From Octopus vulgaris (taxonomy: Eukaryota): a DNA stretch of 64,000 nucleotides. The stretch lies in the NCBI GenBank assembly GCA_951406725.2, contig OX597819.1, positions 9,734,001 through 9,798,000 of the forward strand. Direction: 5' to 3'. Made by a program: the position numbers and the translations under genes. Under the pieces are notes generated by a model. That model was not told where the DNA came from, made no database searches, and was given only the letters and a program-made list of their open reading frames with translations. Shown piece after piece: positions 57,101 to 60,100 of the stretch (positions are counted from its first letter, which is position 1; each line of letters begins with the position of its first letter).

Positions 57101-60100
57101 TCTAGTGGTCAGTCCTTTAAATTTTGTATGTAAAAAATATTTTAATCTTCGGATTTTTTTAATATGCTATGCCATTGGTTTTAATTGATTAATATCAATT
57201 TCTACCCTATATTCAATATATATATATATATATATATATATATATATATATATATATATATTTATATATGTTTACATGTATACGCAGGTATGTATATACA
57301 TATATACATATACATATACATACATACACACACACACTCACATGTGTGTGTGCACGCACGCACGTGTGTGTCTGCATATGCATGTACTCACTTATGTACG
57401 CGTTCAGGTAGGGGTTCTTGGTCAACAATTCCGGTAACTAACCATATATGAACAATATACATTGAGAAATATTCCCTATCAAATATTGATTTAATATCCT
57501 TACTTTCGTTACAGATAGCACTTGGTCAACTGAAGGACTAACTACCAAATATATTGACCCGAACATCACTTTGTGTGAATCAACTCACCTGACAAGCTTT
57601 TCTGTACTTCTAGTAAGTCTATTCTTATTTTTTATACACTCAATTTTATTAGGCTTGTTACTTATTAAAACCATTCTTTATATCTGTGCATTGATGTGCA
57701 TCCATGAATTTCTAAATCTCTGTTTAGGAGAATGATCGCTAGATGTGAGTGCGTAATGTGTGTATATCTATAGTAGGATGAACATGTGCATGGAGCTGTA
57801 GGTTGTGTGTGTGTGTGTGTGTGTGTGTGTGTGTGTGTGTGTGTGTTCGTGTGCACACACACATGTACATGAAGGCATAAATATGCATATAAACTTATTT
57901 ATGAATACATACATCCACATGCACTTATATATTAATGATGTACACAAATACATGACAGGTATACATAATACTGAAATACGAATAAAATAAACACACGCAG
58001 ACAAATATATTAATATAACAAATTAAGAAAAATAATAAAAACATACAATCAATGAAGAGACAAAAGAAACAGTAAGATGATACGTATTGATTTTATTAGG
58101 TATTTCTGTTTATTTAGAAACCTACAATGAACAGATCATGTCACAGACGCTAAACTATAAATTTCACAGGGTACAACCTTAAAGTTGACACCGCTCCGCT
58201 AAACGAAGGAAATTCCTGTCTCACTATTGGCTAAAAATACAGAGGTTTTTCCTATTTTTAAACTTCTGTGACTTTTTCCTCCAATTTTTTTTTCCATAAC
58301 ATCGTACCTTCATTGCAACGAGACTGGAAGACTATATTATTATAGCCGATTTCCAGATATTTTACTTCCTTTTAAAAAAATGCATATTTTGTGAATGTAA
58401 AAATTAGATCCTGTCGCTGTTTTTATAGTAGCTTAACTAAAGAAGAAAGGGTATCACTACCAACCATTTTTAGATTTTTCGAAACCGAAACCTGAAGAAG
58501 GAAGATTTCTTCTCAGTCAATTATTTATGTAAAAAATGTCGCTTTATATAGGAGTGTACTCCGGTAAAATCCTGCTGAATTTGTGTACGTCGATGTTACT
58601 GCTGAACAATGTGTTCCTTGTAACGAGCCAAGTCGATTCCATGAAGACAGAAGAGTCAGCAGAGGCACTGTGTTTCACTCTCACCATACTCTCACATTTA
58701 TTTCTGTTAACGACACTTGCTTGGATGTGTGTAGAGGCCTTCAATATGTACCAGCAGTTATTATTATTATTATTATTATTATTATTATTATTATTATTAT
58801 TATTATTATTATTATCTTTGCTCCGCTAAAGACGCTCAGGGATCTGGTGGTGATTTTAACATGGGGGAAGGATGTGCTTTGATCCAAACGATTTGTTGAT
58901 ATTTCGCTCACCTAGTCTAAGTTCCTACTTGAAACTCTCGATAGTATTTATTTTCTGCTGCTGCAACTAATGATGATGAAGATAAGAAGTGGATGAAGGA
59001 CGGTTAATGTGATCATTTGGCAAGAAAGGGAAGATTGAAGAAGTTTTAGCACCTGTTGTGTCAATCATACACTTAACATTACGTTTTTTGGAAAGTTTTC
59101 AAGAAAGCAAAACTGAAAGATTAAAAAAAAAAAAGCATTGATTCAATTGGCTGTAATTAATGTCGTAGAAGCAGTGAAACTACATTGGTAGCGTCAACAG
59201 GCGAATATTTATTCGAAGAGTCGTGAAGATTAATTGTTGGCTTTCGTGGAATTACAGCCTTTTAAGTGCAATTAGTACAAACATGCTAGAGTTTGGGGAG
59301 AGGCCAGGCAAACCATAAACACATGCTTACAAGTCTGAAACAATGCATCAGTCGTTCAAATATAGGAAAATAGCTGTTAAATTTCCCTCAAACAACATTC
59401 TACCATCCTTAACAAATAAACACATTGAATAGTGTAGTCACTATATATTACACAATGTCTGAGGGAAAAAATAGGATAATCATAGCAGAAATACCTTTGA
59501 TCGTAGATGAGCTCGATAAAGACTGATGTCAGGTAATACAGCACACACACACACACACACACACACACACACATACACACACACACACACACACACATGC
59601 ACACATGCACACACACACACACACATGCACACATACGCACGCACACATTCACATACGCACGCGCACACACAAACAGACACATACATGCACAAACACGCAC
59701 GAACAGTCACATACGCACGCGCATATTTACAGACACACATACATGCACACACCCACACATACACATTTTTACTCTGCTTCGATGAGTCTAGAAAAAGCAG
59801 CGAAATTTCCCTCGGGTCAAATCTAATTGTTTTTACAAGGGATACATTGAAATCAATGAGGGCTGGCTTAGGACTAAACAGTGGAGGCGCAATGGCCCAG
59901 TGGTTAGGGCAGCGGACTCGCGGTCATAGGATCGCGGTTTCGATTCCCATACCGGGCGTTGTGAGTGTTTATTGAGCGAAAACACCTAAAAGCTCCACGA
60001 GGCTCCGGCAGGGGATGGTGGTGATCCCCGCTGTACTCTTTCACCACAACTTTCTCTCACTCTTACTTCCTGTTTCTGTTGTACCTGTATTTCAAGGGGC

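What the first reader, a model, noticed from the sequence alone, without database searches (positions are those of the whole stretch)
58511..58816. Out-of-order TM2-TM3 segment of the receptor inside the GPS-TM1 intron
Seen: an uninterrupted 69-codon adhesion-GPCR TM2-ECL1-TM3 frame (58554-58760) lies about 3.9 kb upstream of the TM1 exon, on the same strand. Its left 48 nt (58511-58558) are identical to 61064-61111, an arm of a nearby inverted repeat. Its right end merges into (TTA)n. Nearby AGs are not in phase with either the GPS or the TM1 exon. Splicing the GPS exon to the acceptor-like tttcttctcag|58517 would give [20 protein letters not shown], a membrane-less ectodomain. Inference: a recent locally templated insertion (template switching or cDNA capture) built from two downstream pieces of this locus. 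It may create a secreted isoform. Misassembly is the alternative.
Basis: partly seen in the sequence, partly recalled or inferred. Interest (0 to 1): 0.72.

Follow-up and report, generated by a model that had tools for sequence, protein, structure and literature searches.

The report
Splice-dead exon copy in octopus intron
An octopus adhesion-receptor gene carries, inside one intron, a real 300-base patch copied from the gene's own downstream DNA; it lacks the exon's splice sites and is likely a harmless scar of DNA repair, not a new receptor form.

Summary
The window lies in an Octopus vulgaris cadherin/EGF adhesion GPCR gene. The true TM2-TM3 exon lies just past the window end (64312-64592 in window numbering) and is spliced to TM1 in an RNA contig. 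Window 58510-58814 is a patchwork: 49 nt identical to a MITE arm (61063-61111), then 198 nt from inside that exon (97.5% identical, neither splice site), then (TTA)19, likely from the (TTA)20 just behind the exon. The pieces are in gene order on one strand. Contigs of independent runs bridge the left and middle junctions, so misassembly is very unlikely. The copy keeps an ancestral Thr codon and occurs under four organism labels, so it predates a change in the O. vulgaris exon. It spans no exon junction, so it is not a processed cDNA. The proposed acceptor is poor (rank 149 of 228 intronic AGs in a crude model), an RNA contig crosses it unspliced, and no annotated isoform uses it. Most likely a neutral, locally templated insertion from break repair with template jumps; a pre-mRNA template or duplication-then-deletion cannot be excluded. 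Ordinary; low interest.

The parts
57515..57612 (+). GPS exon of the adhesion GPCR (H-L-T cleavage motif present); ends in phase 0
   Evidence: Pfam GPS E 1.1e-07; maps to P0002 residues 1072-1104
57854..58411 (.). High-copy dispersed repeat left of the insertion; not part of it
   Evidence: 761 candidates, 40 scored, 83-90% identity; extent
58508..58511 (+). TCTT at the left edge, repeated at 58815-58818; possible 4-nt target duplication or microhomology, unproven without the empty allele
   Evidence: sequence
58510..58558 (+). Piece 1: 49 nt identical to 61063-61111 (MITE right arm); holds the proposed AG at 58515-58516
   Evidence: best ungapped match in 10 other MITE loci 30-43 of 49
58551..58562 (+). 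Piece 1/piece 2 junction: 1-nt overlap (A at 58558) inside a 5-bp hairpin arm (GGAGT / ACTCC, 2-nt loop)
   Evidence: arm of 5 or more in 2.3-3.9% of 20000 random MITE-exon joints, noticed after the fact
58558..58755 (+). Piece 2: 198-nt internal copy of the TM2-TM3 exon (source 64329-64526 in extended window numbering = G000:C6:9798329-9798526); starts 17 nt after the acceptor, ends 66 nt before the donor; 5 differences
58756..58814 (+). AG plus (TTA)19; likely piece 3, from the (TTA)20 at 64713, 187 nt behind the copied exon part (inferred)
   Evidence: the other 5 of 6 runs of 6 or more TTA units in 92 kb, both strands, all lie at 63.9-65.0 kb around the source exon
60766..61125 (.). MITE-like inverted repeat, donor of piece 1
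62611..62732 (+). TM1 exon (phase 0 to phase 2); skipped in the insertion; spliced to the true TM2-TM3 exon at 64312
   Evidence: loose end of the X7 RNA contig reads TM1 end joined to exon start

Best explanation
The 58510-58814 segment is a real, splice-site-free patchwork copy of downstream parts of the same gene, and is likely a neutral scar left when a germ-line break in this intron was repaired by synthesis that copied the neighbouring DNA and jumped forward along it. Shown: the composition (49 nt MITE arm + 198 nt exon interior + TTA run), local donors in gene order on one strand, loss of both splice sites, presence in independent runs. Inferred: the break, a DNA template (sister chromatid or the same molecule), jumps 61111 to 64329 and 64526 to about 64713, a snap-back step (GGAGT to ACTCC) that would have made the 5-nt microhomology for the first jump, and neutrality. 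The open reading frame would simply be inherited from the exon and not yet decayed.
For: Single downstream source for the exon piece: 2 matches in the genome, self and 97% at +5.8 kb; of 11 exons of this gene checked in 92 kb only this one has a second copy. Piece 1 has exactly one source genome-wide and carries locus-specific letters. Junctions have 0-2 nt overlaps and a hairpin arm, as in template-switch / SD-MMEJ / MMBIR junctions (PMC5728401 and PMC4056370, passages read). Contigs with at least 31 letters on both sides bridge the left junction in 4 of 8 runs laid (X1, X5, X6, X7; X3, X4, X9 fall 1-2 letters short; none listed for X2) and the middle junction in 2 of 8 (X6, X9). Decay: Ser-to-Asn at 58609 is private to the copy; organism D's copy has G>A at 58563, which changes the Gly of the GKILL motif kept in all 7 aligned proteins. 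Only 3.7% of weighted single changes would make a stop, so an open frame is expected (83-89% after 3-5 changes). Acceptor 58516 scores -5.9 against 2.4-14.4 for 11 true acceptors, rank 149 of 228; AG-free zone 10 nt against 24-396.
Against: No empty allele was seen, so the break site, any deletion and the status of TCTT are unknown. No contig or long read spans the whole insertion; the TTA junctions were masked by the tool and are supported only indirectly (X6 and X9 contigs carry 35 and 34 further letters past 58747 and end). Jumps of 3.2 kb are far longer than the tens of bases in the SD-MMEJ passages read. Sense orientation and gene order of all pieces fit an RNA template or a duplication with later deletions equally well. 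The hairpin statistic is post hoc and modest. The acceptor model is crude (11 sites, boundaries taken from tblastn hits). Organism D's copy differs at only 3 of about 267 letters, and its flank divergence could not be measured, so weak constraint is not excluded.
Confidence: 0.6

Rival explanations
1. Two-step origin: a 3.7-kb dispersed duplication of 61063 to about 64770 landed at 58510 and was later cut down by two deletions (3217 nt and about 186 nt), which removed the duplicated TM1 exon and all splice sites; such deletions would be favoured if the full duplicate disturbed splicing.
For: Pieces are collinear and on one strand; the two skipped parts hold all four splice sites of the source stretch.
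Against: Needs three events; no intermediate seen in 8 runs (contigs drop rare forms); retained pieces are about 8% of the stretch, so losing all splice sites needs no selection.
Confidence: 0.17
2. RNA-templated patch: a reverse transcriptase primed at the break on this gene's own unspliced transcript, started in the (UUA)n run, and jumped twice towards the 5' end (class 2 TSIP-like, but in cis).
For: All pieces are sense and in transcript order; a simple-repeat run sits at the 3' end; a 4-nt TCTT repeat flanks the insert. PMC5110952 (passages) describes reverse-transcribed patches at breaks. RTE LINEs are reported in octopus (PMC9115989, search listing only).
Against: No exon junction, no poly(A), flanking repeat under the 5-bp class 1 threshold; 0 of 9 SINE 3' ends found in the held sequence have an (ATT)n tail, so the TTA run is not shown to be a LINE tail; neither skip has GT-AG ends; TSIPs as described come from distant regions.
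Confidence: 0.15
3. One reading: whatever its origin, the insert supplies a terminal exon (acceptor 58516) that makes a secreted ectodomain ending [16 protein letters not shown].
For: The joined frame is as stated; ATTAAA at 59120 and AATAAA at 59415 lie downstream; soluble N termini by splicing or intron retention are common in human aGPCRs (PMC11039983, passages: 51.5% of genes in its Table 2).
Against: Poor acceptor; RNA run X7 has a spliced mRNA contig at depth 54.7 and an unspliced contig across 58516 at depth 2.3, with no GPS-exon loose end at 58517 (one RNA run, contigs drop rare forms); 0 of 9 named Octopus isoforms and 0 of 1 unnamed member carry the tail; simple read-through of the GPS intron would give a similar truncated product without the insert; the exon-derived frame is not used by this isoform; H-L-T is intact so the ectodomain can be released by autoproteolysis (established aGPCR knowledge).
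Confidence: 0.05
4. Assembly chimera or mis-ordered scaffold.
For: No single contig or long read spans the whole insert; the TTA end was masked.
Against: The true exon is in order downstream; copy and exon differ at 5 sites and both versions appear as separate contigs in X4 (0 and 3 other letters over 58638-58718); X6 bridges 58469-58747 and X9 58481-58639 in different studies and organism labels.
Confidence: 0.01

Closest known systems
Locally templated insertions at replication-based / template-switch junctions (FoSTeS, MMBIR, serial slippage; as summarised in PMC4056370, passages read)
   Same: Several segments copied from nearby sequence (2.5-6 kb away), joined with little or no microhomology
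   Different: Seen here as an old shared allele, with no parent allele to define the event; microhomology only 0-2 nt unless the snap-back step is granted
SD-MMEJ / polymerase theta templated insertions (PMC5728401, passages read)
   Same: Inverted repeat across a junction that could create new microhomology; multi-round synthesis
   Different: Insert of about 300 nt from templates kilobases away; much larger than the break-proximal events in the passages read; enzyme untestable
Class 2 templated sequence insertion polymorphisms (PMC5110952, passages read)
   Same: Short patch without poly(A) or a 5-bp target duplication, NHEJ-like junctions
   Different: Donor is the same gene, not a distant region; three pieces; no polymorphism seen
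Non-7TM aGPCR isoforms: Cirl 1TM by intron retention (10.1101/2023.01.11.521585, abstract and outline) and soluble N termini (PMC11039983, passages)
   Same: Same gene class and same gene region (between GAIN/GPS and the 7TM exons) as the proposed isoform
   Different: Those are shown in transcripts; here no transcript, annotation or acceptor strength supports it

Membership tests
Locally templated (template-switch) insertion | Inserted DNA matches nearby genomic templates | tested here: met
   unique donors 2.5 and 5.8 kb downstream
Locally templated (template-switch) insertion | More than one template segment with short or no microhomology at joints | tested here: met
   1-nt overlap in the middle, 2 nt on the left, AG filler on the right; third segment inferred
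Locally templated (template-switch) insertion | Single event relative to an empty parent allele | tested here: inconclusive
   no joint skipping the insert (4 runs) or among the 15 of 44 joints shown
Processed retrocopy / class 1 TSIP | Spans exon junctions or ends in poly(A) | tested here: not met
   piece 2 lies inside one exon; TM1 exon skipped; no poly(A)
Processed retrocopy / class 1 TSIP | Target-site duplication of 5 bp or more | tested here: not met
   only TCTT (4 nt) flanks the insert; empty allele not seen
Duplicated alternative exon | Copy keeps acceptor and donor and lies in usable order | tested here: not met
   starts 17 nt after acceptor, ends 66 nt before donor, lies before TM1
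Secreted aGPCR splice isoform | Transcript with GPS exon joined to a terminal exon | tested here: inconclusive
   not seen in the one RNA run laid or in 9 named isoforms; contigs cannot show absence
Secreted aGPCR splice isoform | Functional-strength acceptor | tested here: not met
   crude in-house model
Polymerase theta product | Dependence on POLQ | not testable with these tools
   historical germ-line event
Adhesion GPCR (host gene) | GPS motif followed by secretin-type 7TM, long adhesive N terminus | tested here: met
   Pfam GPS and 7tm_2; P0001/P0002 carry PF00028, PF00008, PF01825, PF00002

The most novel reading that the evidence does not exclude
The insert is a fixed germ-line scar of in-cis RNA-templated repair: the gene's own nascent pre-mRNA was reverse-transcribed into a break in the same intron, the enzyme jumping over the stretches that hold the splice sites. 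That would be natural evidence for transcript-templated repair in an animal germ line, and would predict a sense-strand, same-gene bias among such inserts genome-wide.
Probability: 0.12. Interest if true: 0.6.

Novelty: new member of a known kind. Interest (0 to 1): 0.2.

Why it matters
As it stands it matters little: a clean natural example of a multi-piece local templated insertion, a possible shared marker for the O. vulgaris group, and a trap for gene prediction (a 94%-identical tblastn hit out of exon order). It would matter more if such inserts proved sense-biased genome-wide (RNA-templated repair) or if the secreted isoform were found in RNA.

Tried and rejected
Transposon end joined at a TA in the exon: rejected, because the MITE family continues about 11 or more letters past 61111 and the exon has His (CA, not TA) at that site in all named Octopus proteins. 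Skips as ordinary introns: neither has GT-AG ends on either strand by inspection. Right flank as a retroelement body owning the TTA tail: 58813-59130 and a 25-nt pattern with 2 mismatches match only themselves (these searches skip common words); left flank 58412-58512 likewise. TTA run as a SINE/LINE tail: 0 of 9 SINE ends had (ATT)n, 1 had (AAT)n. AGTTATTATT also occurs reversed at the MITE's left end (60747), but also at 85292, low complexity; kept as a weak alternative source only. Holes in X2 and X9 over the right flank prove nothing. The search of earlier findings returned nothing near this place. No outgroup octopus genome is held, so the empty site could not be read. Literature searches were for context; none listed a paper on this locus, and I did not search for it by gene name.

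Full report
Host gene. The window is G000:C6:9734001-9798000 of a 2.8-Gb genome. The exon just past the window matches at 100% proteins named 'adhesion G protein-coupled receptor E1-like [Octopus vulgaris]' whose contig length equals that of C6; they carry cadherin, EGF, GPS and 7tm_2 domains, with orthologues in O. sinensis and O. bimaculoides. P0002 maps exon by exon from 15057 to 72213 in extended window numbering. GPS exon 57515-57612, TM1 exon 62611-62732 and TM2-TM3 exon 64312-64592 join in frame. An RNA contig of run X7 shows the TM1 end joined to the start of the TM2-TM3 exon.

Observation. The open frame, the shared stretch and the TTA tail are there. The shared stretch is 49 nt and has exactly two exact matches in the genome. 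It lies in the right arm of a MITE-like inverted repeat with hundreds of relatives, but 10 other loci match it at only 30-43 of 49 letters, so the donor is the local copy.

Anatomy. The exon-like part has one other match in the genome, 5.8 kb downstream, at 193 of 198 letters. It begins 17 nt after the acceptor and ends 66 nt before the donor. Of 11 exons of the gene checked against 92 kb, only this one has a second copy. After it come AG and (TTA)19. Of 6 runs of six or more TTA units in the 92 kb, the other 5 all sit within about 600 nt of the source exon, one of them a (TTA)20 on the same strand 187 nt behind the copied part; I infer that this is the third donor. So the insert reads 61063-61111, 64329-64526, about 64713 onward: gene order, one strand, two forward skips. 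The middle joint has a 1-nt overlap inside a 5-bp hairpin arm, found in 2.3-3.9% of random joints (post hoc). TCTT stands at both edges. Both flanks are single-copy in the searches made.

Is it real? 8 of the 24 listed runs were laid, all as contigs. The left junction is bridged with at least 31 letters on both sides in X1, X5, X6 and X7, 1-2 letters short of that in X3, X4 and X9, and not among the pieces listed for X2. The middle junction is bridged in X6 (58469-58747, 1 other letter) and X9 (58481-58639, 2 other letters), from different studies and organism labels. In X1, X3 and X5 a 404-nt contig begins exactly at 58558, the branch point expected if both exon and copy exist (inference). 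X4 holds both versions of 58638-58718. The TTA stretch was masked, so the right junction is supported only indirectly, and no piece spans the whole insert. One of the organism B runs may be the assembly's own source; X9 (organism D) and X5 (organism C) bear other labels. No joint skipping the insert was listed.

Age and decay. The copy encodes Thr where the O. vulgaris exon has Asn; the named O. sinensis and O. bimaculoides proteins have Thr, and X5's exon contig differs from the copy at 3 sites against 5 for X3 and X7. The copy therefore predates that change. Ser-to-Asn at 58609 is private to the copy; organism D's copy also changes the Gly of GKILL. An open frame after 3-5 changes is expected 83-89% of the time, and zero changes in 49 nt has probability 0.08-0.48. 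No date in years can be given, and the state in O. bimaculoides is unknown.

Function. All five AGs between 58500 and 58620 give an early stop when joined to the GPS exon. Two are in phase with TM1 but meet a TAA at 58530. In a crude model from 11 true acceptors of the gene, 58516 scores -5.9 (true sites 2.4-14.4, leave-one-out), ranks 149 of 228 intronic AGs, has 9 pyrimidines in 18 (true 13-17) and an AG-free zone of 10 nt (true 24-396). In X7 the spliced mRNA contig has depth 54.7 and an unspliced contig crosses 58516 at depth 2.3, with no GPS-exon loose end; this is one run, its RNA label is a guess supported by the spliced junction, and contigs drop rare forms. None of 9 named isoforms carries the proposed tail. 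Soluble and 1TM aGPCR isoforms are known (PMC11039983, passages; 10.1101/2023.01.11.521585, abstract and outline), so the idea is reasonable in general, but nothing here points to it, and GPS-intron read-through would give a like product without the insert.

Mechanism. Best: one repair or fork-restart event that copied nearby DNA discontinuously, of the FoSTeS/MMBIR or SD-MMEJ kind (PMC4056370 and PMC5728401, passages), 0.60. Rivals: duplication of 3.7 kb then two deletions, 0.17; reverse transcription of the gene's own pre-mRNA with jumps, 0.15 (class 2 TSIP-like, PMC5110952, passages); a functional secreted isoform, 0.05; misassembly, 0.01. A processed cDNA origin fails its tests. The three origin models all give a non-functional intronic scar; they cannot be separated without the empty allele. 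PMC6408891 (passages) was read for octopus aGPCR context and did not bear on this locus; no supplements were opened.

Verdict. Real, locally templated, most likely neutral; a new instance of a known kind. Interest 0.2.

Noticed in passing
window 58295-58442: The low-depth X7 contig (depth 2.3) joins 58442 to the reverse complement of 58295-58324 and beyond, with a GAA overlap: a library template-switch artefact or a small inversion allele in the repeat left of the insert.
   Followed up: partly
P0003, P0017, P0019 (O. bimaculoides), exon 64312-64592 in extended numbering: Current O. bimaculoides models end by reading through the donor of the TM2-TM3 exon (…VAWGEYYPCF…), giving truncated 7TM proteins, while an older model (P0021) is full length; probably an assembly gap or annotation artefact, possibly intron retention.
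   Followed up: no
window 58678 / exon position 64449 (G000:C6:9798449): The O. vulgaris exon has a derived Thr-to-Asn change at the start of TM3 (CFNLT), which creates an N-x-T sequon near the extracellular face; O. sinensis and O. bimaculoides keep Thr.
   Followed up: no
window 52187-52557 and 59880-60268: Two 96-97% identical copies of a tRNA-like SINE 7.7 kb apart within the gene.
   Followed up: no
window 53978-55117: Short direct repeats (D7, D11, D14, D17; 86-93%) beginning with a CTAGCAGTATCGCCCGGCG-type end, also at 34011; looks like nested copies of a common non-autonomous element.
   Followed up: no
window 56980-57125: A second near-perfect inverted repeat (MITE-like) in the intron before the GPS exon.
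   Followed up: no
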